A stretch of 64,000 nt of DNA from Trypanosoma brucei (Eukaryota), in NCBI GenBank assembly GCA_000002445.1, contig CP000068.1, positions 928,001 to 992,000 on the forward strand, in the 5' to 3' direction. This document shows, piece by piece, positions 1,331 through 46,406 of this stretch. A program made the translations under genes and the position numbers. The notes below the pieces were generated by a model, which saw nothing but the letters and a program-made list of their open reading frames with translations, searched no databases and was not told the DNA's origin. Position 1 is the stretch's first letter, and each line of letters starts with the position of its first letter.

Positions 1331-3670
1331 ATGAATTCGACGAGTACATCAAGTTACGAGCACGATGTTCCCGTTAAGTATATTCGTACTCTTGACGCAA
1401 GGCTTTTGCCACCGCGAGTGGGGCATAACTGGCTTGATGCAGCGTTTCGCTCAGTCCAAGGTAAACCGCAGCAACTTGAGGAAGAATTCCGAGGAAAGCG
1501 TGCTTTTATGCCACCTGGTGTGTACGACCACACGCCGCCGGAGGGGTTAGGACTCACCGCGCGTCAGCTCATGCAGGCGCTGTCAACACGGAGGAAAGAT
1601 GGCCCCGCGCCGGACGGGCGGCCAATATTTACCACACTGTCTGATAAGGTGCTTCGTTTTTACGCGTTCTTCTCGGAAAAGGCACCTGAAGGGTGTTGTG
1701 AGGAGTACTGGCATCGCTGTGTTGTCATTAATTTTTACCCTGAAGACGATACCGTTCTCATCCAAGAACCCCCAATTCCTAATAGTGGATTACCCGGCGG
1801 AACGTTCCTCAAGAGGCAAAAGGTACGTGCGGACCCAAGACAACGAGAGCAATTTCCCAGTGATGAGTTTCTCACGATCAACCATTTCAACGTGGGTTAC
1901 TCGGTGCGCATCAATTGCGTTGAATTCTTCCTTTATGATTGTGATGCCTTCACACGTGATTTTCTAACCGAAATTGGGGTGGATGTCGGTGAACCGATGC
2001 AGTATCCAGATTCTTCGTTCATGTCTCAGTGGAAACATCAGCAGGAGCAAAGAGCAACAACCAATTATGGTATTGTCTCTAATAACTACTATAGAGACGA
2101 TGCTGTGCGAGCAGCCAGATTTGTACTAGATGCCGGAAAGGTTCTTCGCTTCTATGGTTTACTTGACGAGCGTGACAAGACAACTGGGGGAGCGGTGCGA
2201 AAGTTGGAAGTATTATACTTTGTTGAAGACGACTCTATCGCGGTGGTGGAGCGCCCCACGACAAATGAGGCGGTACCAGCATTGTTTCTCTCACGTGGGT
2301 GGCTCCCAAAGGCGGGGTCTATTGAGAAGACCCTTGAATTCACTTTTGCACACCGGGTAAACGGTATGAGGGAACCGTACGTGGGGCCTGGTGGCTGCTA
2401 CACTGCGCGGGATCTTGGGGTAGGGGCCACCATTAACGTTCTTGGAAGAGGTGTCTTCCTTTACGATTGTGACGATTTCACACGTTCGTACTATAAGGAG
2501 ACTTTTGGAGTGGAGCTTGCTGAAGCTATAGATGGTCTCAGTCAATATGGTCTACCGTCGAAGCCTGACGTTGTGTCTTTTCGGTCGAACGCTACACCAG
2601 CTTCTGCTCCTGCCACTGTTGCGCCGAAAGTGGTGGAAACTAATGTCATTATTAAAAAAGGTGATGTACTTCGCTTTTTGCTGCGCCTCTCCGCACCTTG
2701 CACGTCAGCGGAGCGTATGCGTCGCTTCACCCTAACACACTACACCGCAACAGGTGATTCAATGGTATATGAGTCTCCCATCAAGAACTCTGGCTACGTT
2801 GGTGGTTGCTTTAGTAGTCGATCGCGGATTCCTAACCCCGCAGGTGGACCGGGCGCGTACTACACACATGAGGATTTTAAAGTTGGCAGTATCATTGTGA
2901 TCAACGCTCACAAATTTGAGGTAATGAACATGGACGAGCACACAGCAAACTTCCTGGCGTGTAAAGGTGAAACTGCTCTGAATGAAGAACAGCTGCGGTT
3001 GCTTGTCGATGCATTCCGTCTATTCCTGAGGACGCGATTTCACTCATTCAGAGATGCTTTTCTTGGCTTTGATCGTGACAAGGATAGTGTGATCAGCGTT
3101 ACGGAGTTCGTGGACCACGTGACCCATTTGCAAATCACAGACAGACGGATGGACGCGCAGGCACTCTTTGATAGCATTTGCCAGAACCCGGAAACAGGTT
3201 ATCTAACACTGGAAACTTTTGTTGACTGGATAAACCAAAAAGGGTCTGAAAGCTGTGGGGATGCTAAATCGAGTCAGCCTATAAACATAGATGAACGGGC
3301 GCTGATGAGGAAAGCTTTGTGTCAACTGTGCGAACGGCTTGAGGCTCGGTGTTTGAACAGCCTTCAAATGTTCAGACTTGCTTCCACTATGCCAAGGGCT
3401 TACTCTGGGCGGCGTGCGGATTGCTATTCGCTGACCAATCCGCATCGTGACGCCTATATAACACCTGTGCAACTTCGGCGGTGTATTGAGGAGGTGTTGG
3501 GCGGTAACCCGTCGCCTCGTGAGCTTGACGCCTTGCTCTTCTTTTTCTTTCCCGCATTGCCGCCGGAGGAGTACCGTGTTAAGCGGGATATCAGCCTTGA
3601 GCATTCACTCGACCTTAAGGCGTTCCAGAAGAAGTATCACGAGATGTGCACACTTCAGCAACTGTCGTAG
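1331..3670 (+). CDS. Flagellar protofilament ribbon protein Rib72/EFHC1-like (three DM10 domains plus a C-terminal EF-hand region)
   Basis: Three repeated DM10-like units (VLRFYAFFSE...FLYDCDAFTRDFL; KVLRFYGLLDE...FLYDCDDFTRSYY; VLRFLLRLSAP...) are followed by an EF-hand-like C-terminus. The ORF-track start at 1298 is TTG; the first in-frame ATG is 1331. Confidence 0.8.
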   Translation: MNSTSTSSYEHDVPVKYIRTLDARLLPPRVGHNWLDAAFRSVQGKPQQLEEEFRGKRAFMPPGVYDHTPPEGLGLTARQLMQALSTRRKDGPAPDGRPIFTTLSDKVLRFYAFFSEKAPEGCCEEYWHRCVVINFYPEDDTVLIQEPPIPNSGLPGGTFLKRQKVRADPRQREQFPSDEFLTINHFNVGYSVRINCVEFFLYDCDAFTRDFLTEIGVDVGEPMQYPDSSFMSQWKHQQEQRATTNYGIVSNNYYRDDAVRAARFVLDAGKVLRFYGLLDERDKTTGGAVRKLEVLYFVEDDSIAVVERPTTNEAVPALFLSRGWLPKAGSIEKTLEFTFAHRVNGMREPYVGPGGCYTARDLGVGATINVLGRGVFLYDCDDFTRSYYKETFGVELAEAIDGLSQYGLPSKPDVVSFRSNATPASAPATVAPKVVETNVIIKKGDVLRFLLRLSAPCTSAERMRRFTLTHYTATGDSMVYESPIKNSGYVGGCFSSRSRIPNPAGGPGAYYTHEDFKVGSIIVINAHKFEVMNMDEHTANFLACKGETALNEEQLRLLVDAFRLFLRTRFHSFRDAFLGFDRDKDSVISVTEFVDHVTHLQITDRRMDAQALFDSICQNPETGYLTLETFVDWINQKGSESCGDAKSSQPINIDERALMRKALCQLCERLEARCLNSLQMFRLASTMPRAYSGRRADCYSLTNPHRDAYITPVQLRRCIEEVLGGNPSPRELDALLFFFFPALPPEEYRVKRDISLEHSLDLKAFQKKYHEMCTLQQLS

Positions 3671-4376
3671 ACTAATATATAAAGGTAGATAGGGTGAAAA
3701 GAAGGTCAATATGGTGATGCCACCTGACTTGTTTGCGCCCAGAAGTGGTGCTGACTATGAGTACCAAGAATGTGGCGGTTGAGGAGATGGTTGGTAACAA
3801 ACTAGAAATGTATATTGCACGTGGCACGTTGTAGACAGCGTTACATCAATCATAATATGTAAATAATAGAGTGAATCGGAGGGGGAACGTGAGGACAGGC
3901 AGAGTTTTTGTGGACGCACCGTAGATATTTCAACGTTATTTCTGCAGGACTGCCTATGTGCCTGGCGTGGTTAGCTCATTGTAATATTGAGAATGCGTCT
4001 CCTGATCTTGCTCCATTTCCATTTAGGGGGTTATTTGCCTCTCCTCCCATATGTACTCCTTTTGTTTGCCGTGTTGTATTTCTTTCATCTGTATAATCCC
4101 CTTTCTCCCCAATTTTGTCATTATTATTACACTATACGATACAATCTTGTTTTGTGTACACATGCTTGTGCTTGTGCAGCGGACACAGATACGGTCACGG
4201 TGCTCGGGGTGGCACCAACGCAACAACTCCGAAGTAGTGGGAAGAAATATATTGGATAAAACGTTGGTCAGGAAGAATAAAAACGCTGTGCGCCGACTTG
4301 GGTTAAAACACTTGGGTACAATAAAGAAAAAGGGAAAGGGACAACACGGTAACAAAGACGCCAAGTAGCAATAAGG

Positions 4377-5537
4377 ATGAGTAAACCTACCGTTTCGGAG
4401 GAACACCATGCAGATGTGATTCGTCAGCACTTAACTGGAATCGAGAACGCGTATTACTACAACCCTGGTAATGAGATGGCGGCGGTACATCCTGCGGAGG
4501 GGACTGTGTCCCCGCGGCAGTCACAGGATATTCAGCCAGTTTGCATTGTCGCTGGTAATGGAAACCGCCCACTAGCTGAGGCAGTGGCGCTGCTTCTGGG
4601 GATCCCCACACACCAGACTTTAGTGGCCCAACGTGCAAGCGGTGAGGTGAATGTCCGTATATGCGAGAGTGTCCTTGGCGCCGATGTGTACATCATCCAG
4701 AGTACTTCGGGAAATGGGCTCATCGACGTTAACACAGCGATTATGGAGCTTCTGCTGCTCGTTCGGAAGATGCGCCTCAGCAATGCGAGACGTGTCACTG
4801 CAATAATCCCCTTCTTTTCGTACTCGAAACAGGATCGCAAAAGAAACATCCGCAGCACAATTTCGGCGGCGGCCGTTGCCAACATGCTGACAACCGTTGG
4901 GGTGGACCGCGTCACAACACTCGACCTCCATGCAGGGCAAACACAGGGGTTCTTCGGCAACACACCATTGGACAACCTGCAGATGTACCAAGAATTTGCT
5001 CAATATCTTCATAGCCAGGTATGGTTTAACAGCAACAATATGACGATTGTAGCACTGAGCGCTGGTAGCGTAGAGCGCGCACGACTTCTAGCCGATACAC
5101 TCAACATCGATCAAATTGCCACCGTCCTCCTACGGCGCAATGCGAGTGGCACCGTGACTTTGCAGTGCGTGGGAGAGGTGAAAGGCCGCATTTGTGTTGT
5201 CGTCGAGGGTATCTGTGACACGGGTGAGGTCCTTGTGAAAACTTCTGAGTTGCTGAACCAACTTGGTGCTACAAAGGTAACGGCTTGTTGCACCCACGGC
5301 ATTCTCACACCGCCATGCCCTCAGCTGCTAAACGAATGTGATGCTCTAAGCGAAGTTGTTGTGTCTGACTCAATACCACAGGAGGAGCATCAGCGACTTG
5401 TCCCCAAATTGAAGGTACTCACTATTGCCCCGCTAATCGCTACTGTCGTGTTCAAACATACCCAAGATGCCAGTTTTGTTCCTTTGTTCGAACAACCCAA
5501 GCTTAGGGAGGGAAAGGGATCCGTCGACTCTCCATAA
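4377..5537 (+). CDS. Ribose-phosphate pyrophosphokinase (PRPP synthetase)-like protein, divergent, with an N-terminal extension
   Basis: PRS family motifs are present: RVTAIIPFFSYSKQDRK (compare human PRPS1 RVTAVIPCFPYARQDKK) and DLHAGQTQGFFGNTPLDNL (compare HASQIQGFFDIPVDNL). The canonical ribose-5-P loop DDMADTCGT is replaced by EGICDTGEV. Confidence 0.8.
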   Translation: MSKPTVSEEHHADVIRQHLTGIENAYYYNPGNEMAAVHPAEGTVSPRQSQDIQPVCIVAGNGNRPLAEAVALLLGIPTHQTLVAQRASGEVNVRICESVLGADVYIIQSTSGNGLIDVNTAIMELLLLVRKMRLSNARRVTAIIPFFSYSKQDRKRNIRSTISAAAVANMLTTVGVDRVTTLDLHAGQTQGFFGNTPLDNLQMYQEFAQYLHSQVWFNSNNMTIVALSAGSVERARLLADTLNIDQIATVLLRRNASGTVTLQCVGEVKGRICVVVEGICDTGEVLVKTSELLNQLGATKVTACCTHGILTPPCPQLLNECDALSEVVVSDSIPQEEHQRLVPKLKVLTIAPLIATVVFKHTQDASFVPLFEQPKLREGKGSVDSP

Positions 5538-6256
5538 AGTGTTAACTTTTTTTTCCCTTTTCCACTGTGTCGATGTTGATAGGTATAAGGGAGGTGGATG
5601 CTCAGTGGCGAGTGTTTCGTGGGAATTTATGTGTAGGTCGCTTTTTTTGACCACGGTACGCTCTCCAGTGTTGATTTAATTTGTTTTCGTAAGACGAAAA
5701 TTTGTTATAATTAACGAGAAGGGAAAGCAAAAAACGAAGGAGTCTCAGCACGAGCACACGCATGCTATAGGCGGTACGGTTGGTCCTTCGTCTAATTATC
5801 GACGTGTTTTTTTTTACATTCGCCACGGGATAGAAGGGGAAAAGTGAGCAGTTAAGGCGCATTATGTGCATTGAAAGTACTCCTAATTCCCTTCACTGTG
5901 GGTGATGTTTGGTAACACCGCGTACTTCTTACTTGCCCTTATCTTCTTTTTCACGAACATTTGGTTTTGATTCTCTTTTCCCATTTTGTTTTCCCTCATG
6001 TATGATTATATATCATGTGTATATAGGGCTCACAGAGTTTTCTTTGAATAAGATAGAAACCGCCTAAAGGGGCAGTTGATATTATTATCTTGTACTGTTG
6101 CAGCGCAACCGCTGAAGATCATCTTTTGTTTTTTGAAAAAAAAAAACACACACACACAAGTGCACTCAGGTGCACGTTTCATAGACATAATTCTGTCAAG
6201 TGGAAAAGGTTGTGTGAGCCGAACCTCGCAACCCATAGAAGAGAGTGTGAAGGAAA

Positions 6257-34872: not shown

Positions 34873-35178
34873 ATGTCCTCCGGTTTCCATTTTCATGACG
34901 TGTCCAATGACGCCATCAAAGGAATGCCACCGAGCGAGGCTTTACATAAGCACCTGGAGAATGCGCAGCTCGCGCACCGCATTTGCCTTGCCAAGGCACT
35001 AAAGGCTGGTGAACCCCCTGTGGAAAAATGTGCACTCACGTGGGGTGAAGTGCTCATACGGTACCAGGCCTGGTCCGAGTATCGCCCACCCTTCCAGGAT
35101 AGTGTTGCACAGGCAAAATACAAGAAGTACTGGAGCAAAAAGCGACAGGAAGAGGACGACAAGAATCCATTCAAATAA
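34873..35178 (+). CDS. Small hypothetical protein (101 aa), the last gene of the plus-strand cluster
   Basis: ATG start. Small basic protein; its position is supported by spacing after the previous gene. Could also be spurious. Confidence 0.4.
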   Translation: MSSGFHFHDVSNDAIKGMPPSEALHKHLENAQLAHRICLAKALKAGEPPVEKCALTWGEVLIRYQAWSEYRPPFQDSVAQAKYKKYWSKKRQEEDDKNPFK

Positions 35179-38100
35179 CTGGTGTGCTTAACACGGGGAA
35201 CGGGGCACCCCTTGGGAGTTGCTTGCTGTACGGTTCCAAGGAATGGCGTAACGTTGATGTGTGTGTTTTTAGCGGATATATTTTATTGCAGTGGCGTGTG
35301 TAGCAGTTGGTCGGGTAAGGAATTGAACGAAAATTTGTCTGTTTGTTGGCTGCTTTTTGCAGCCTTAGGAGCATGCTGGAGAGTATTTACACCGAATTAG
35401 TTCCGTTTCCCATTCAGTCTCTCTCCCCTCCTCAAATTTGGGGGGGGGGCTTTTCATGATATTGTTGTGCACGTTGGTAAAACCAAAAAGATTTCTAACT
35501 AAACCTCTATCTCCTCCGCTTATTGTTTTCTGTCACCTTAGCTTTTTCTTCGTTAAAAGGCAATATAGCTCCACTACTCATGGGCGAGATGGGAATGGTA
35601 GGAAAAATAAATGCTCGGCGTGGCTGCGCAAACCAAATACACCTCTCAAAGCCATGTCTTTCTTAGTTTACGGAATTATTTGGATCTAAAGGACGGTGCT
35701 CTTGTCGAGAGGTGAGGTGTCTCCGAGATCAACCACGACACCAGGGCTGTTGATCATCCTTTTCGACTCCATTAGAAAAAGGCTCAGTTAACCACCCGCC
35801 ATATGCAACAACCTTGAGGCAGTTGGCACCGCCTCAACTGCAACGCGAGCGGACGAAGAGGGTGAAACTGTGGGGTTAAAAAGTATTAGGGTCAATGAGG
35901 AAAGTGAAAAGGGAGGGAAGTTGCGGATATTAATCGAGGAGCGAAGGTGGATGTTCATTAGGGCATCCACTCTTCATTAGGTGCCAGAGGAAAGCTGCGT
36001 TGCTTACGCGTCGCGCTTTACACAATCGTGCGGATAGTGAATGAGGCCCCGCTCTGAAGAGTAAATAAGGCAGGAAACTCGGGCACCCGAAACAAAAGCC
36101 AGCAGCGCGAACAAAAAGTGGGAAGTTGGATAGCTGTAGGAAACGCGGCAGCACCAGCGAAGTTTAAACAGAGCCGAATGTTTCCACGGCGGAACACGAG
36201 GATATAGACGAAGGGTATGCCGAGTGGGGCGCCATTGGGAAGCACACGGCTTTTTTTTCTACTTTTTTCGGTTGCCAAAATGCTGCGAATTGCAACCGTA
36301 CAACTGACTGAAGGCGGCCCACTACTCATAGTGCCAAGGTGTTTTTTTTATTTTTGAGCCTCCGAGAGGGATACTTCCCGGAAACGTTTTGAGGTTTCAA
36401 TCGGGATCTTACGGCATGAAGTCTCCAAACCGATTATGAAAGGAGACACATGAAGGCAACATGGCCTCTGACAAAACGAAATGCGAGTGTCCCGGGCGTA
36501 AAATTACGTTAGCGGCACCGACGAGCACCGCATGGGGGCAGCTACTCGAAGCGAAAGATTAAGCGAGTAGCTGGTTGACACAAAGGCGCCTAAGCAAATA
36601 AGCACAGGAAACAATCTCGCTGAAGTTAAAGTTGCCGTTACACCTGGGGAGTGAGGGCTACATAAATGGAATAACTGGAGGAGACTCACTGGATAACAAC
36701 TGTAATAAGCTGGCAGCGGGAAGTGGTCCCCTCCGTTTCACACCTCGTGAGAATAGAATTGTGCTTAGCCCTGTATGTTGGCATGTTCAGATACAGAGCG
36801 CTTGGTAAAGAATGTAATGGAGGGATTATGATCATCGCGCCCACTTTGTAATGAATAGGCGACGCCGGTGCCGTGACATCGCGGTCCGCCCACGGACGCA
36901 GCGAATGGTAAGGAAGTGACGGAAGAAACGCACGAAAGACCGACAAAACGAGAAATAAAAAAAAAAAGGTGGCGACACTCGCGGTTATCTCGTCAGAAAT
37001 ATCCACGGTTCACGGAGAATGCGATAATCGCTATAGCGCGGACGAGGCGTTTGTGTGGGACAAAGTGAAGCACTGTCTCTGGGTTGCCGCTGTCACTAGA
37101 AACTTTGCAGACAAGGGAAAAGAAGGCACGGGGCGTAACACGCAACAGCGGAGCGGCACACTTGCTTCGCGCATACGGATGACACGCGACCAACGAAGAG
37201 AGAAATTCCGCAACCGCTAGAGACTGGAGTAGAGCACCGAGAGTCCTTTATTCATTTGCTTGAAAGTTTAGCAACCTTAAGCGCACACCCACACACACAC
37301 ATAAAAAAAAAAAGATGCGGCTGGCGCGAAAGTTGAAGTTACAGCCGCACACATGGGTAAAAAGTTGGCACGGCTCCTTTACACATACCCTGGTGTGTGC
37401 GTGTGTGCGGGGGGCCATACCAAAAAGCTGGAGAATCTCTCAATGCATTACTGCCGACCACCGGCGAGGAAATCCAGTCCGTACGTCAAAATATAACGTA
37501 GGTGATAATAATGTCGATAACGGTTCCATTCCGCATTCCGACAACTCAAATAAGTGTATTGGTGAGTCCGCAAGGTCTCCACTTCCCCAGTTGATCCTCC
37601 CTGAGGAAAAGAATGTTGAGCGCCCACACCTGCGATGTACACATATAAATTTAAATTGTCATGCCACCAACGCGACCAAGTGTAATAGAACCAATTTGCA
37701 AGGTTCAGTTGAGGTGCCTTTCGTTTATACCGACTGCTGAGCTCATAAGCTAGTTTGTGGTCGATAGTTTCACCCGGCCTCAAAAGGGAAGGGAAACGGT
37801 TACGCGATGGCATGATACTTTGGCTTTTTCTCTATAATATTGGTTTTGTAAAAAAAAAAAAGAGGGTAATGGGAAGATCATTGTGACCGGGAGGTCCAGT
37901 GAAGCATATAGTTTTTTTTTACTGTTATTTCCGCCAAACTAACCAACGAATTGCCACCAAACCCGATAACACTCGGCAGTAGAAACTATCGGGAACTTTC
38001 CTAGAAGCGGCACAACGTATACCAGTGTCTTGAGCGCATTTGTCCGTCCACACCCCGTGATTTTCTCATCTTACCTCGCTTTGCTGCATTCCTCTCCTCC

Positions 38101-39328
38101 TTTCTTTATGTTCATACGCATATATGCTATGTGCGTGTGTTTAAGAGCCAGTGCCAAATGAAGATAACTGACTTGCCTCACCATCCCCTTGAATCCCGTA
38201 CGTTACCTTGCCGACTACGTTTCCGCATCCACAACAACGTTCTAACCTGAGGTTCCACACTTAATAATCCTTCCTCTTTACCGCATGTGTATTCCAGCAT
38301 CACGACGCGCTTAACTCATGCCAGCCGCCGCTGCCACAACATCCGCATCGATTACTTCTGCTCACCATCCTCAATAGCAATATTGTTTGTGTGTGTGTGT
38401 GTGTGTGTTGTATTTGTTTGGTTGCGCCACGCATGCCCTCCAAAGTCAATTAATTCACCCCGTTCCCAGCGATCAAAATACTCAGCTGAGTCGAAGACCG
38501 CAAACGGCACGCACCTTTCCGATGGTTATCCTCAGGTAGTTGGAAATTCTCTGAGGCCGGCCGAGGCCCAAGGCAGCAAAACAAAAAAAAAACAGCAGTT
38601 ACGCGGGGGCGCACATAGCTTCATTTCCCCCCTTGGAAACGGGTCTGAGAAGCAGAACCATCCGTCTCCATAGCGGATCAAACAAAAAAAAACATTCACG
38701 TACATGCTTATAGATTTCTATATGTGTGTGATATCTTCTGCCTGTGATTATATCTATCTTTCCTCTTCGTCGGATTCCAGTTGGTGGGGCATTTGTAATG
38801 TCGTTTTTTTTTTTCGTTTCCTTCCTTTTCCCTTTAAGGACACATATTACCGTGTCACACCCGTTTAAGGTTGGTTGCCCCCCCCTCCCCATGTTTACGT
38901 CCATGCGTGCGTCAGCGCACAGCCGCCCCAATCACTGCTATTTCCAGCACTCCTTCACCAACGCGCATATCAACGGCATGGGGCCTCTCCTCGTTTTTCT
39001 CTCCTCCTACTGATATTGATATGTTCCTCGTTGCTTTTTTTTTTTTTGGAACCAATCACATACCATACTCAGGTATTGGCTTTCCATTCAACTCTTTAAG
39101 ATTCGGAGGCGGGGTATAAATTCAGCAGCTGATTAATGCGTATGTGTGAAGGATCCAGCACAAACCCAGAGGCCTGTGATATTCACTTATTCTCCTTTTC
39201 TTTTCGCATGCTCTTTCGCTTTTACTTCGCCACATTACATCCACATATATATATATATATATATTAGAATTTCCCCCTTATGGTTACCTGTGAAGTTCAC
39301 TTTACACTCGCAAAATTTTCCTCATCCC
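35179..39328. other. Convergent strand-switch region between the two directional gene clusters, a putative RNA polymerase II transcription termination zone
   Basis: Plus-strand genes end at 35178 and minus-strand genes end (3' end) at 39329. Neither strand has an ORF longer than 141 codons. Composition is GC-balanced, unlike the AT-rich intergenic spacers elsewhere in the window. Several long T and A homopolymers (T8 at 36252 and 36347, A12 at 37849, T11 at 38809, T15 at 39037) are present. By eye I found no tRNA A/B boxes. Confidence 0.6.
38388..38408. repeat. (TG)10 microsatellite inside the strand-switch region
   Basis: tgtgtgtgtgtgtgtgtgtgt. Confidence 0.9.
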
Positions 39329-40093
39329 TTATTCCCCCCTAATCTCAAAATCCGGTGTTACCGTCGTGGCGAAGGCTTGCAATTCGTCGTTACGTAGGGC
39401 GCGTGGTAAAGTTTGCGGGTGCCCGTTGACCGAAGGAGGAGGAAATGAGTTCTCAGGATTGGCGGGAGGCAACATGTTAACACCGGATCTTTCCCTAGAC
39501 AGTTCCTCCAGACGGCGGAGGATGCCATCACAGGAGTTCTTTTGCCTTTTCCCCACATTCCACATGTATACTAACGCAGAATATAGCAATTTTCCAACAT
39601 AAATCATTTTCTCTGTTAGATGCAACCTCTTTTTTAATTGCCCCGCGGAGAAGCCCAGTTCCCGAATCCAATCATTGAAATATCCGAAAATGAGGCGGAA
39701 CAACTGAGAACCCGCCTCCAAATCTTTGATGGTTGTATCCCTTGAATCCAATGCCTCTCTCAAGTCATCAATGATTTTCCTCCTAACTTCATCAGCACCA
39801 ACATTACGACCCACCATCGGCCAGTAATATTCCTGAAGGAGAGTGATAAACTGGGGATATGTTGTTTCAGTTTCTAGCGACCACATTCTTCCCTGTTCAT
39901 CCTCAACGGTTGAATGGTTCGTATAAAGTTTTGGGTCATCTAATTTCATGGTTTCGTCAAGCCATGCAATGGCAAAGTTGATATTATATCCCCGGCCGCT
40001 CTTACCGATTCCACCGTGTGTAATTCCTTGTTTGCTCCCCACACTGCTATCAGTTGAATAGTGAACGCGCCCACTGTTTTCTTTGTTAATCAT
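39329..40093 (-). CDS. Hypothetical protein (254 aa) with a Gly-rich loop (GITHGGIGKSGRG) that may bind nucleotide
   Basis: The ORF-track start at 40156 is TTG; the first ATG is at 40093 (MINKENSG...). It is the first gene after the strand switch on the minus strand. Family not recognised. Confidence 0.5.
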   Translation of the reverse strand: MINKENSGRVHYSTDSSVGSKQGITHGGIGKSGRGYNINFAIAWLDETMKLDDPKLYTNHSTVEDEQGRMWSLETETTYPQFITLLQEYYWPMVGRNVGADEVRRKIIDDLREALDSRDTTIKDLEAGSQLFRLIFGYFNDWIRELGFSAGQLKKRLHLTEKMIYVGKLLYSALVYMWNVGKRQKNSCDGILRRLEELSRERSGVNMLPPANPENSFPPPSVNGHPQTLPRALRNDELQAFATTVTPDFEIRGE

Positions 40094-40700: not shown

Positions 40701-41357
40701 TCAGAAACCCAACCCCAGCAGCCAGTGGTGCAACACCATACGACCATCAAGTGCCACATTGTACACATAAATGGAGTGGCTCCGCACAAATATTTTTTTT
40801 GTTGGAAAAATCTTGAGCAGTTCCTCCTCAAAGCGGAACATATCGCCCTCCACCTGTTGGATGCGGAGGTAAAATGCTGGCATTAAGTTACGAGGATGCA
40901 TAGAGAACACCTTTCCTGGAAGTACACCGTTACTGCTGCGGTGTACGAAAAATGGAATCGTATCGAGCGGATCAGCGGGTCCTAAAGGCGGAAGGTACCC
41001 AACAGCAGAATCCCTTCCCACTACACCAACTGCTTCGGGTTCTTCTTGACAACGTTGCGGTGGGCACAATTTAGCGAAGTCGTGCAATTTGTATCGGAGC
41101 GGTAGTTTCAGCAGCTCGTCGTAAACATCGCTTCGCAGCGCACGGTTCCATTTGCTATATTGAATTCGCGGCACCGGAAGAGCGGCCGCAACGTTCGCCT
41201 CAGGAGGCATTGCACCAGCAGAAATATTTGCCGCCACATCCGTTGGGCTCACAATGTTGATGTATTTTCCGGTACTGGGCATTACATCACGCCCCAGCGA
41301 TGTGTTTGCCGCGGTTCCTCCGAGCCACACGCGGCGCAAACGTGACCGGTTCAGCAT
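40701..41357 (-). CDS. Hypothetical protein (218 aa) with a presequence-like N-terminus (MLNRSRLRRVW)
   Basis: ATG start confirmed (cat at 41355-41357 on the plus strand). Uninterrupted ORF in register with the minus-strand cluster. Confidence 0.5.
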   Translation of the reverse strand: MLNRSRLRRVWLGGTAANTSLGRDVMPSTGKYINIVSPTDVAANISAGAMPPEANVAAALPVPRIQYSKWNRALRSDVYDELLKLPLRYKLHDFAKLCPPQRCQEEPEAVGVVGRDSAVGYLPPLGPADPLDTIPFFVHRSSNGVLPGKVFSMHPRNLMPAFYLRIQQVEGDMFRFEEELLKIFPTKKIFVRSHSIYVYNVALDGRMVLHHWLLGLGF

Positions 41358-43279: not shown

Positions 43280-44895
43280 CTTGTTGTCCTTCTTTTTTCC
43301 TTCTTTTCTCCCTTTATTGTTATTACTATTATCCTACTGCTTCTTAATTTATTTTACCCGCTTGCTTATATACCGCTACTTTTCCTCTTCTTGTAACTTC
43401 TAAAAGTTTTTATTTAGTTATTATTTTTTTTTTGCGGTCCCCGCACACGCTCACCCCCCAAACACCGGTGTCAATACGGAAAAAAAAAGAAAAAGAAATG
43501 GGGAAATTTTTGTAATGGTACATTTATTCGACCGGTTGTTTCTTGAAACCACTGCTTCCTTTTTCTTCCTTTTTAGTAACATTCCCCTTCACATCCGCAA
43601 CTCTTTTCTTTTCTTTTGATGACATTCCACATATATATATATATATATCGGGTAACGTTACTTCTGAATGTATTGCAGAGAGGTGTGTGTGTGATTACGC
43701 CTTGCATTGAAGTGCAGAAACCAACTCGTCGAGTGAGTTAATAATTATGACAATAATAATGATAATAAATAGTAATGATAATATAATTCAAATATGCGTT
43801 AAGAAAATAATGTCATAAATAAATAATTATATATATATGTATACTTATGTAGATGAAGTAGACCTTCTTTTAATGGACTACAACTCCCCCCACCCCCCCC
43901 AAAAAAAACGAATCAAAAAAAAAGGATTAAAAAATATTGGTGATGAGAGCTGACAACTTTGTTCCCATCATTACCACAGATTCCGTTTATTTCCCTTCTT
44001 TTTTTTCTTTTCCCCTTCCTCCTCTTCTCTACGGCCGTTTTTAATATTCATATATTTGACATTAGCTGTTTTTAGTTGTAACGAAACCAATTGGAGAAAG
44101 CGGAAAGTAAGGAAACAAAAACGCAAAGGGGAATAAAGAAATACAAATGCTAGAAAAGAAATCGTACGAAGAAGGGGGGAGGCTTAAAAATAAAACAAAC
44201 AAACAAACATGCAAACAAGTAAAAATGACATCGTCTTACAAAAATGGGGAAAGGGGAAAAAATAAAAATTTAAACAAGCCGACTCATGGAAACAATTTAC
44301 AGTTTATCGTGCATGGACATGTTTATCTGCAGAATAAAGTAAAATAAAATAAAAACAACGGTAACGACAACGTCAAAAGAGAAAAAAATAAAAAAAAATA
44401 GGGCAATTCATCCAGTCAGATAGGAATCCCACCGCATTCACTCTGTTGAATACAAATAAATATTTTTAAAAAAAACCGTTATTTATTTATATTTTTTATA
44501 TTTTAAGAGTCGTGACACACGGGTTAATAGGAGGAACAAATAAGTCAAAACATAACGTAGCAACACATTCAAATTTACACCAAAGGAAAACAAAACAGAA
44601 AAAAAATCAAAAATAAAAGAAGACAAGAATCAAGGAATCGTGTTGCAATTCGGATTTTTACAAGAGATATAACAAAATAATATACGTAAAGAAAACAAAC
44701 TTTTATCTGTCCTTTGCACTTTAGTAAAATTGCTTAGTCAATTGCTTGGCTGTTGGTAAAAATAAAAATAAAAAAACAAATTAGTGAATTAATGAATTAG
44801 AAACTGCAGCACGGAAATATAAAGGTGGACCTCTGCGTTTCACTCTTCTCTTTTTTTATTTCAATTTCGTGTGCCGACTCGAAAAAAAAAATCCA

Positions 44896-44899
44896 CATA

Positions 44900-44940
<41 letters not shown>
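44896..44940. repeat. (TA)n microsatellite, imperfect, about 20 units
   Basis: catatatatgtgtat(at)16. Confidence 0.9.
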
Positions 44941-44943
<3 letters not shown>

Positions 44944-44986
44944 TTTTTTCTGCTTTCACTTCCATCAATGAACACGAAATGAGATA

Positions 44987-44989
<3 letters not shown>

Positions 44990-45051
<62 letters not shown>
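44990..45051. repeat. (AT)31 perfect dinucleotide microsatellite
   Basis: 62 nt of uninterrupted alternating AT. Confidence 0.95.
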
Positions 45052-45053
<2 letters not shown>

Positions 45054-46406
45054 ATAAGGGGAGGGATAAAATAATAGCAAAAGTTATCATCACTATAACG
45101 ATAGATAACAAAAAAAACTATCTTTAAAAGCGTAACCAAACACAACCACACACCTGCATTCGTAACTGTACTGTAATGACAGATAAATCAATGGAAATGG
45201 ACGGTAGAAGTTGAACCAAAACTTAGGACAGAAATCAAAAAGTTTAAGTGAATGGTAAAATAGCAAAGACAAAAGAGAAAACACGCGAGAGGAATGAACA
45301 ACACCACAAACCAAAAATACAATAAAAAAATAAAAAGAGAAGAAATGAGTGAAACAAATGGGGGTAATAAAAAGCGTTTTTTTTAAATTTTGCGGCTGCT
45401 GACACATTAAAAGTTCTCATTCTCTCCGTCTCACACACAAGCGTACGATAATAATTTCCTCCTCTCGAATGGAAGACGTTTAAAAACACGCTAAAAATAA
45501 AATGAATGTGTCGCAAACGTGATGCACCGGATTGGGGAGAAGTATTGAAACAAATGCGTGATAAATATTTGCAGAGATAAAAAAAAATGATAGAAACCTG
45601 TTCCCTTTGACTTTTTTTTCCCCTTCCCCACCCTGTATTCCACTATTTGTTTTCTTTGTGCGGCTTTGGTGTTGTCCGCCTATTGCCGTTTTATTCTCTT
45701 TATTTCTTTGCGTATATATCTATCCTCCTTTCCCTTCTTCCTAAACCGCCTGGTTAGGGGAGACACTCCGCTGGCATCAAAAACAAAATAGAGTCAAGCG
45801 GAGCATGGAGGGAAAAGGAAAAGAAAAACAACAACAACACCTTCGTGTTATTGTTTCACTCATAACTTTTGCGTAGGGAATGGTAGAAAGGAATAAATGT
45901 ATATTTTAATAAAGGAGCGAAGGGGGAAAGCAAAAGCAAAACAAAGGAAAAATACAGACAAAAAAGGAATTTAAAACAGAAAAAATTGAACAATACGTAT
46001 TGATTTCTTTCGGGTTGTCACGTTTTGTCTGATTTCTCTTCCGACACCCGTGTTTTTATGTAACCAAATACGGGTAGGAGAATAAAAACAAGAAATATAT
46101 AAAGAAAATAATGATAAGGAAGGAGGGATAGAGCGATAAGGGTACAACATACACCTTATTTTCTTTCCTTTCATCCGCTAACTTAAGCGAACGTACCGGT
46201 AGATCATTCGACCGATTCCTTGTTTGTTTTTTCGCTTGTGCCTCCTCCCTCCCCCCCCCCCATACACACATCACCCACAAAACACCGTACATCACACGCC
46301 GTGCATCCAACCACATTAAAAACATGGAGACAAGATAGAAAAGAAAAACAAACAAACAAAAACCAGAAGAACACTGAGAGACTACCAGACACACACACAC
46401 AGTCGA

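What the first reader, a model, noticed from the sequence alone, without database searches (positions are those of the whole stretch)
35179..39328. ORF-free, GC-balanced 4.1-kb convergent strand-switch region
The two directional gene clusters converge here. Unlike the AT-rich, microsatellite-rich spacers inside each cluster, this region is compositionally balanced and has no ORF over 141 codons on either strand. It contains multiple T8-T15 and A10-A12 homopolymers (Pol III terminator-like T-runs at 36252, 36347, 38809 and 39037) and short stem-loops (for example gatcaac...gttgatc at 35726-35755, gcggctg...cagccgc at 37317-37350). In T. brucei, convergent strand-switch regions are transcription termination sites marked by base J and histone variants H3.V and H4.V, and they often carry tRNA or other Pol III genes. 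I could not find tRNA A/B boxes by eye, so the region may instead hold unannotated ncRNA (snoRNA, or siRNA-producing convergent transcripts) or a degenerate retroposon remnant. An A11 tract at 37303-37313 follows a CA-rich segment like a retroposon tail.
Basis: partly seen in the sequence, partly recalled or inferred. Interest (0 to 1): 0.5.

Follow-up and report, generated by a model that had tools for sequence, protein, structure and literature searches.

The report
Ordinary trypanosome transcription termination zone
This 4.1-kb gene-free stretch is where two converging gene arrays of Trypanosoma brucei chromosome 5 meet and RNA polymerase II stops; it is a known locus that has already been tested experimentally, and I found no hidden gene, RNA or mobile element in it.

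Summary
The window is T. b. brucei TREU927 chromosome 5. The + strand gene array ends with Tb927.5.3090 (ATP synthase subunit ATPTB12, stop at 35178). The - strand array ends with Tb927.5.3100 (stop codon at 39329-39331). The 4,150 bp between them have no coding signal.

The main interpretation, a convergent strand-switch region that acts as a Pol II termination zone, is supported, and for this exact locus. Schulz et al. 2016 used these two genes as model genes next to a convergent region. Antisense RNA over Tb927.5.3100 is at zero in wild type and appears when base J is removed.

The extra suggestions are not supported:
- No tRNA, Rfam family, C box or B-box excess.
- No protein domain in any of six frames, no target-site duplication, no repeat copy.
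- The 141-codon ORF is frameshifted in a sister strain.
- T/A runs and hairpins are at ordinary spacer levels.
- GC (47.3%) is only the top of the spacer range.

Two real but unsurprising extras. The region lies at a synteny breakpoint. Its two arms carry mirror-image purine skew that changes sign at about 37.4-37.9 kb.

Verdict: already known and ordinary. Low interest.

The parts
34873..35178 (+). Tb927.5.3090, mitochondrial ATP synthase subunit ATPTB12 (101 aa); last gene of the + strand transcription unit
   Evidence: Exact match to AAZ11422.1. PDB 8ap6_O 'ATPTB12', E=1e-68. 86% identical in T. cruzi. 11.6-kDa ATP synthase component Tb927.5.3090 (PMC2674945).
35179..39328 (.). Convergent strand-switch region (Pol II termination region) between the stop codons of Tb927.5.3090 and Tb927.5.3100; non-coding
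   Evidence: ORFs; coding potential 1.5, against 4.8 for spacers and 20 for CDS; no Pfam hit in six frames. AAZ11422 and AAZ11423 are consecutive, so nothing is annotated between them in TREU927. PMC4721952.
35179..35553 (+). Probable ATPTB12 3'UTR and first downstream pyrimidine tracts (35418-35433, then G10 at 35440-35449; pyrimidine-rich 35504-35553). Inferred, not shown.
   Evidence: Sequence read directly. The published distances from gene starts to the region's edge (1840 nt from Tb927.5.3080, 4456 nt from Tb927.5.3070) put the left edge at about 35.24-35.53 kb. That placement is my own inference.
35600..37400 (+). Left arm: + strand purine-rich (57.6% A+G; GC skew +0.06 to +0.21, AT skew +0.08 to +0.31)
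37400..37900 (.). Point where composition switches strand: GC skew is near zero here and negative beyond; AT skew changes sign; local GC minimum of 42%
   Evidence: cumulative GC skew of the whole window peaks at about 38000.
37900..39328 (-). Right arm: - strand purine-rich (59.1% A+G). Holds the Tb927.5.3100 3'UTR, whose edge I infer at about 39.12-39.15 kb.
   Evidence: Published distances of 942 nt (Tb927.5.3100) and 2238 nt (Tb927.5.3110) from gene start to the region's edge.
37315..37740 (+). Chance 141-codon ORF, annotated as a 143-aa gene only in T. b. gambiense; not a gene
   Evidence: Frameshifted with stops in L002. 11 amino-acid differences plus a 2-aa insertion between TREU927 and gambiense. 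Coding score 2.1 and -0.4. This exact TREU927 sequence is absent from the protein collection. No hit in other trypanosomatid loci.
39329..40093 (-). Tb927.5.3100, a 254-aa protein found only in the T. brucei group; last gene of the - strand transcription unit
   Evidence: Exact match to XP_844982.1 'hypothetical protein Tb927.5.3100'. No homologue outside the T. brucei group among 5.8 billion proteins. Absent after mL49 in T. congolense, T. theileri and L. major.

Best explanation
The region is the convergent strand-switch region of T. brucei chromosome 5 between Tb927.5.3090 (ATPTB12) and Tb927.5.3100. Pol II travelling along the + unit passes the ATPTB12 polyadenylation site. Pol II travelling along the - unit passes the Tb927.5.3100 polyadenylation site. 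Both polymerases stop inside this 4.1-kb spacer, so neither transcribes the opposite array in antisense. The stop depends on chromatin marks (base J, with histone H3.V) rather than on an encoded gene, tRNA or terminator motif. The DNA itself is unique, non-coding and weakly constrained, and lies at an evolutionary junction between two ancestral synteny blocks.

Shown: the convergent arrangement, the absence of any gene or RNA family, and J-dependent suppression of antisense transcripts at this locus (published). Inferred: the 3'UTR extents and the position of the stop, which I place near the skew switch at 37.4-37.9 kb.
For: Arrangement and identity.

Non-coding:
- Coding potential 1.5, against 20 for CDS.
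- No Pfam domain in six frames.
- ORF141 is broken in a sister strain, and its length is within chance.
- No remnant of the genes that neighbour either flank in other species.

Weak constraint: the highest divergence from T. b. gambiense in the 20 kb compared falls here, 1.6-4.6% per 500 bp across most of the region, against 0-1.2% in most coding bins.

No RNA genes.

Termination function at this locus (PMC4721952):
- Antisense RPKM, wild type to J/H3.V double null: Tb927.5.3070 0.008 to 0.46.3080 0.015 to 0.71.3100 0 to 0.49.3110 0 to 0.73.
- Tb927.5.3100 antisense log2 RPKM: -9.97 (floor) in wild type, -1.03 J null, -6.40 H3.V null, -0.36 double null. Sense stays at 6.4-6.6.
- Confirmed by stranded q-PCR on Tb927.5.3100 and Tb927.5.3090.

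General model of termination regions marked by J, H3.V and H4.V: PMC8559703.

Strand composition flips sign at 37.4-37.9 kb.
Against: I could not inspect base J, H3.V or H4.V ChIP, or run-on data, for this locus, so where Pol II stops within the 4.1 kb is unknown. Folding z-scores are slightly lower than in other spacers (mean -0.39 against -0.13; 10% against 8% of windows below -2), so a weakly structured transcript is not excluded. Polyadenylated non-coding transcripts from the arms are likely, because the published analysis reports some transcription continuing past 3'UTRs in wild type, and I could not examine them.
Confidence: 0.9

Rival explanations
1. The region hides an unannotated non-coding RNA gene (a snoRNA, a Pol III transcript or a functional lncRNA).
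For: Local folding is slightly stronger than in other spacers. There is a perfect 10-bp hairpin at 36539-36573. Trypanosome lncRNAs are poorly catalogued (my own knowledge).
Against: No tRNA. No Rfam family at gathering thresholds, and only one chance hit at E=3.8. No C box on either strand. B-box-like sites are below expectation. No window reaches z < -3.6, and the 10-bp hairpin region has z = -1.4. No tandem or dispersed repeat of the kind snoRNA clusters show. Divergence between strains is at its highest here. Pol III is not enriched at TTRs without annotated Pol III genes, bar one.
Confidence: 0.06
2. The DNA is the decayed remnant of a retroposon (ingi, RIME, SIDER or DIRE) or of lost genes left at a synteny breakpoint. 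This would explain its near-coding GC content.
For: The region lies exactly at a synteny break. ATPTB12 is followed by RHS, DGF-1 and trans-sialidase genes in T. cruzi, by an adenylate cyclase in T. vivax, and by other + strand genes in L. naiffi. The mL49 unit continues past mL49 in T. theileri and L. major. GC of 47.3% is the highest of 23 spacers. From my own knowledge, not checked here, synteny breaks in these genomes are often associated with retroelements.
Against: No reverse transcriptase, endonuclease, RHS or cyclase domain in any frame at E<=1. No tblastn hit from the neighbouring genes of other species. No 12-bp target-site duplication next to any of 8 A/T tails. No second copy in 64 kb or in 8 related loci. 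No residual codon bias. I did not compare it with retroposon consensus sequences, because none was available to the tools.
Confidence: 0.1
3. It is an siRNA-producing locus made by overlapping convergent transcription.
For: Some T. brucei convergent regions do this, and 30 of 72 gain small RNAs in the H3.V knockout (PMC4721609).
Against: The chromosome 5 convergent region at 964,085-968,719 is the only one listed of matching size and relative position. It has 4 RPM in wild type and 8.7 in the H3.V knockout, not significant, against 3,000-6,000 RPM at true siRNA regions. Wild-type antisense signal over the flanking genes is about zero, so the overlap is small. I could not verify the coordinate match.
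Confidence: 0.03
4. ORF 37315-37740 is a real protein-coding gene, as annotated in T. b. gambiense, so the + unit extends further.
For: T. b. gambiense annotates a 143-aa gene here. The reading frame is open in three of four strains.
Against: It is frameshifted with several stops in L002. There are 11 amino-acid replacements plus a 2-aa insertion between two strains, in the most divergent part of the locus. Coding score is at background. It is not annotated in TREU927, T. equiperdum or L002. Its length is within the chance range. No homologue appears in the other trypanosomatid loci compared.
Confidence: 0.02

Closest known systems
T. brucei convergent Pol II transcription termination regions (cSSR/cTTR) marked by base J, H3.V and H4.V (Siegel 2009; Schulz 2016; Reynolds 2016)
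   Same: Two transcription units converge on a gene-free spacer of a few kb. Antisense read-through into both flanking units appears when J and H3.V are removed. This very locus is one of the published example loci.
   Different: Nothing found. It belongs to the majority class that lacks tRNA/snRNA genes (133 of 154 TTRs).
tRNA/snRNA-associated termination regions (Pol III boundary type; Staneva 2021)
   Same: Both sit at the end of Pol II transcription units.
   Different: No tRNA, snRNA or other Rfam family here. T runs are at normal spacer density.
siRNA-generating convergent transcription units (Tschudi 2012; Reynolds 2016)
   Same: Convergent geometry.
   Different: The probable matching entry has only about 4 small-RNA RPM, and wild-type antisense transcription of the flanking genes is about nil.
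ingi/RIME/SIDER/DIRE retroposons at trypanosomatid synteny breakpoints
   Same: Location at a synteny break. A-rich tracts are present.
   Different: No retroposon ORF remnant, no target-site duplication and no repeat copy.

Membership tests
T. brucei convergent strand-switch region / Pol II termination region | Two polycistronic units on opposite strands converge (3' ends face each other) | tested here: met
   ORF map. Flanking genes identified as Tb927.5.3090 (+) and Tb927.5.3100 (-). GC skew changes sign at about 37.4-38.0 kb.
T. brucei convergent strand-switch region / Pol II termination region | No protein-coding gene in the spacer | tested here: met
   Coding potential at or below the spacer background. 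No Pfam hit in six frames. The longest ORF is broken in a sister strain.
T. brucei convergent strand-switch region / Pol II termination region | Pol II transcription stops inside it in wild type, and read-through appears when base J/H3.V are lost | not testable with these tools
   Not computable from sequence. Published data for this locus meet it: Tb927.5.3100 antisense log2 RPKM is -9.97 in wild type and -1.03, -6.40 and -0.36 in the J, H3.V and double mutants (PMC4721952).
T. brucei convergent strand-switch region / Pol II termination region | Enrichment of base J, H3.V and H4.V over the spacer | not testable with these tools
   No ChIP or J-IP track is available to the tools. This is the general rule stated in PMC8559703 and PMC4721609.
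tRNA/snRNA-associated termination region | At least one tRNA or snRNA gene in the region | tested here: not met
   ARAGORN found 0 in the whole window. Rfam found 0 at gathering thresholds and one chance hit at E=3.8. B-box-like sites number 7 against 14.8 expected.
siRNA-producing convergent transcription unit | Abundant 21-27 nt small RNAs from both strands | tested here: inconclusive
   Published table: chromosome 5 964,085-968,719 has 4 RPM. I infer that this entry is the locus from its size and relative position. I could not obtain TREU927 coordinates to confirm it.
ingi/RIME/SIDER/DIRE retroposon | Remnant of reverse transcriptase or endonuclease coding sequence (autonomous elements) | tested here: not met
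   Six-frame translations against Pfam at E<=1: 0 families.
ingi/RIME/SIDER/DIRE retroposon | Poly(A) tail flanked by a roughly 12-bp target-site duplication | tested here: not met
   None of the 8 A/T runs of 9 or more has a 12-mer with at most 1 mismatch within 6.5 kb upstream.
ingi/RIME/SIDER/DIRE retroposon | Conserved 5' signature of about 77-79 nt, or similarity to the element consensus | not tested
Only indirect evidence: no second copy in the window or in related loci.
Trypanosomatid C/D snoRNA cluster | C box (RUGAUGA) and D box (CUGA) in units of 70-110 nt, usually tandemly repeated | tested here: not met
   No RUGAUGA on either strand. No tandem repeats beyond microsatellites. No Rfam snoRNA family.

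The most novel reading that the evidence does not exclude
The two arms have mirror-image purine-rich sense strands (57.6% and 59.1% A+G, about 2-2.5 sd above the window mean, with A>T, unlike the + unit as a whole and most of its spacers). These could be a sequence-encoded part of termination or of base J/H3.V positioning. Alternatively they could give rise to functional non-coding transcripts that end each transcription unit, rather than being a passive by-product of transcription-coupled mutation and the lack of splice signals.
Probability: 0.05. Interest if true: 0.5.

Novelty: already known. Interest (0 to 1): 0.08.

Why it matters
It matters little beyond bookkeeping. The finding correctly picks out a Pol II termination zone from sequence alone. 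That zone is already annotated and has been used experimentally as a model locus for J/H3.V-dependent termination. The useful results are negative: the T. b. gambiense gene call inside it is spurious, no Pol III gene, snoRNA or retroposon is detectable, and T runs and hairpins here carry no special signal. [quoted passage not shown]

Tried and rejected
- tRNA and Rfam scans of the whole window, plus a permissive scan of the region: nothing real.
The repeat with X-masked sequences found 0 families.
- tblastn with the genes that follow ATPTB12 or mL49 in T. cruzi, T. vivax, L. naiffi, T. theileri and L. major: no remnant in the region.
- blastn of the region against the rest of the window and 8 loci from outside the T. 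brucei group: only hits of 20-36 nt with E>0.01.
- Target-site duplication search around A/T tails: none.
- C/D box and B-box scans: none, or below expectation.
- Sliding-window folding z-scores with spacer and CDS controls: a small shift, no outlier. The 10-bp hairpin at 36539-36573 has z = -1.4.
- T. congolense orthologous locus: the ATPTB12 protein is not on record for contig look-up, and the mL49 contig ends 1.15 kb after the gene. I could not make a comparison with a close outgroup.
- TREU927 chromosome coordinates: only the T. equiperdum contig was returned, so the match to the Reynolds 2016 table entry stays inferred.
- RBP33 paper supplements: no mention of these genes.
- Search for gene IDs Tb927.5.3091-3096: none in the literature held.
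Full report
**Identity of the window.** The 101-aa protein encoded at 34873-35178 (+) occurs with an identical sequence on chromosome 5 of T. b. gambiense DAL972 (FN554968.1) and on chromosome-scale contig CM010676.1 of another T. brucei-group assembly. An exact look-up links it to AAZ11422.1. The 254-aa protein at 39329-40093 (-) is 'hypothetical protein Tb927.5.3100 [Trypanosoma brucei brucei TREU927]' (XP_844982.1, AAZ11423.1). The two accessions are consecutive, so TREU927 annotates nothing between them. The 101-aa protein matches PDB chain 8ap6_O, 'ATPTB12', at E=1e-68. It is the 11.6-kDa ATP synthase component Tb927.5.3090 of Zikova et al. 2009 (PMC2674945). The next - strand gene (40701-41357) is mitoribosomal protein mL49 (7AOI_Al).

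**Checking the observation.**
- All large ORFs lie on + up to 35178 and on - from 39329.
- The longest ORF inside is 141 codons (37315-37740). Shuffled sequence reaches that length in 6-9% of trials.
- The homopolymers and the two named hairpins exist but are not remarkable.
  - A/T runs of 8 or more occur at 2.4 per kb, inside the 0-5.5 per kb range of the other 22 spacers.
  - About nine distinct 7-bp hairpins (16 overlapping hits) compare with 6.4 +/- 3.3 hits in dinucleotide shuffles.
- GC is 47.3%. That is the highest of all spacers but only 1.7 sd above their mean of 42.8%, and below the CDS mean of 51.4%.
- The region also has its own microsatellites, (TG)12 and (AT)10.

**Is anything encoded?**
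- A codon-usage log-likelihood scan trained on the window's genes gives 1.5 per 300-nt bin in the region, against 4.8 for other spacers and 20.0 for CDS.
- Six-frame translations hit no Pfam family at E<=1.
- The 141-codon ORF, annotated as a 143-aa gene only in T. b. gambiense, is frameshifted with several stops in the second T. brucei-group assembly. It differs from the gambiense version by 11 amino-acid replacements and a 2-aa insertion. It is a chance ORF.
- ARAGORN finds no tRNA in 64 kb.
- Rfam finds nothing at gathering thresholds, and only a chance E=3.8 hit in a permissive scan.
- There is no RUGAUGA C box on either strand.
- B-box-like sites are below expectation.
- Local folding z-scores average -0.39, against -0.13 in control spacers and +0.05 in CDS. 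No window falls below -3.6.
- A perfect 10-bp hairpin at 36539-36573 sits in a segment with z = -1.4.
- None of the eight A/T tails has a target-site duplication.
- No part of the region recurs in the window or in eight loci from outside the T. brucei group.
- Neighbouring genes from other species leave no tblastn trace.

**Constraint.** Against T. b. gambiense, mismatches per 500 bp are 1.6-4.6% over most of the region (peak at 37000-37500). Most coding bins show 0-1.2% and other spacers roughly 1.4-3%. Four T. brucei-group sequences fall into two haplotype groups that differ by 2.5% across the region and its two flanking genes. The DNA therefore evolves about as fast as, or faster than, any other part of the locus.

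**Composition.** From 35600 to 37400 the + strand is 57.6% purine. From 37900 to 39328 the - strand is 59.1% purine. The mean for 1.5-kb windows is 51.3% (sd 3.2). GC and AT skew change sign between 37.4 and 37.9 kb, at a local GC minimum. This mirrors the known transcription-linked strand asymmetry of trypanosomatid genomes (my own knowledge) and marks where the two units' composition meets. I treat it as a descriptive marker, not a demonstrated signal.

**Evolutionary context.**
- Synteny on the + side (RING protein, 334-aa protein, ATPTB12) holds in T. cruzi, T. vivax and L. naiffi and stops right after ATPTB12. Beyond it lie RHS, DGF-1 and trans-sialidase genes, an adenylate cyclase, and unrelated + strand genes respectively.
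- On the - side, most or all of the kinase, 216-aa, eIF-5/eIF-2B-domain and mL49 gene set recurs in T. congolense, T. theileri and L. major. In the last two the unit continues past mL49.
- Tb927.5.3100 has no homologue outside the T. brucei group.
- The region is thus a junction of two ancestral blocks. From my own knowledge, this is typical of strand-switch regions.

**Function.** Schulz et al. 2016 (PMC4721952) chose Tb927.5.3100 and Tb927.5.3090 among five representative genes next to convergent regions and confirmed by stranded q-PCR that antisense transcripts rise without base J and H3.V.
- Their S6 Table lists antisense RPKM, wild type to double null: 0.008 to 0.46 (Tb927.5.3070), 0.015 to 0.71 (.3080), 0 to 0.49 (.3100) and 0 to 0.73 (.3110).
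- Their S2 Data give Tb927.5.3100 antisense log2 RPKM of -9.97 (floor) in wild type, -1.03 in J null, -6.40 in H3.V null and -0.36 in the double null. Sense stays at 6.4-6.6.
- At this locus, therefore, termination of the + unit inside the spacer depends mainly on base J.
- Their distances from gene start to the region's edge place the edges near 35.24-35.53 kb and 39.12-39.15 kb. That placement is my inference.

Staneva et al. 2021 report that only 20 of 154 termination regions carry tRNA/snRNA genes. Pol III is not enriched at the others, bar one. This argues against reading the T runs as Pol III terminators. In Reynolds et al. 2016, the chromosome 5 convergent region at 964,085-968,719 has 4 small-RNA RPM, not significantly changed in the H3.V knockout. 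It is most probably this locus, but I could not verify the coordinates.

**Conclusion.** Its speculative additions (Pol III genes, snoRNA, siRNA source, retroposon tail) find no support. The finding is ordinary.

Noticed in passing
window 39329-40093 (-): Tb927.5.3100, the last gene of the - unit, is an orphan confined to the T. brucei group. It has no homologue among 5.8 billion proteins and is absent after mL49 in T. congolense, T. theileri and L. major. Yet it is well expressed (sense log2 RPKM about 6.5 in PMC4721952 S2 Data). It may be a lineage-specific gene born next to a termination zone.
   Followed up: partly
window 43280-46406: A 3.1-kb very AT-rich spacer (GC 33%, down to 29.5% at 44001-45000) inside the - unit, between the eIF-5/eIF-2B-domain gene and the 386-aa gene. 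It is packed with microsatellites, including (AT)31 at 44990-45051 and 14 A/T runs of 8 or more. T. b. gambiense annotates a 106-aa ORF there (L010 5155-5475).
   Followed up: no
window 34873-40093 and L001, L002, L009: Two deep haplotype groups. TREU927 is close to T. equiperdum OVI (0.33% apart) and T. b. gambiense DAL972 is close to assembly GCA_003543875.1 (0.27%), but the groups differ by about 2.5%.
   Followed up: partly
L004-L008 (downstream of the ATPTB12 orthologue): Synteny ends right after ATPTB12 in every species examined. It is followed by RHS, DGF-1 and trans-sialidase genes in T. cruzi, a receptor-type adenylate cyclase in T. vivax, and three unrelated genes close to a contig end in L. 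naiffi.
   Followed up: partly
window 36539-36573: A perfect 10-bp inverted repeat (CAGCTACTCG ... CGAGTAGCTG) with a 15-nt loop. I expect roughly 0.1 such stems in 4.1 kb (my own rough calculation), but the surrounding 76 nt fold no better than shuffles (z = -1.4).
   Followed up: partly
window 35418-35449: A 16-nt pyrimidine tract is followed 6 nt later by a G10 run, about 240-270 nt after the ATPTB12 stop codon. A matching C8 run lies at 38878-38885 in the other arm. Possibly linked to 3'-end processing. Not tested.
   Followed up: no
window 36957-36983 and 37303-37328: Two A11 tracts 346 bp apart are each followed by a similar G-rich stretch (26 nt, 73% identical; the repeat finder family D7). 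Probably chance.
   Followed up: no
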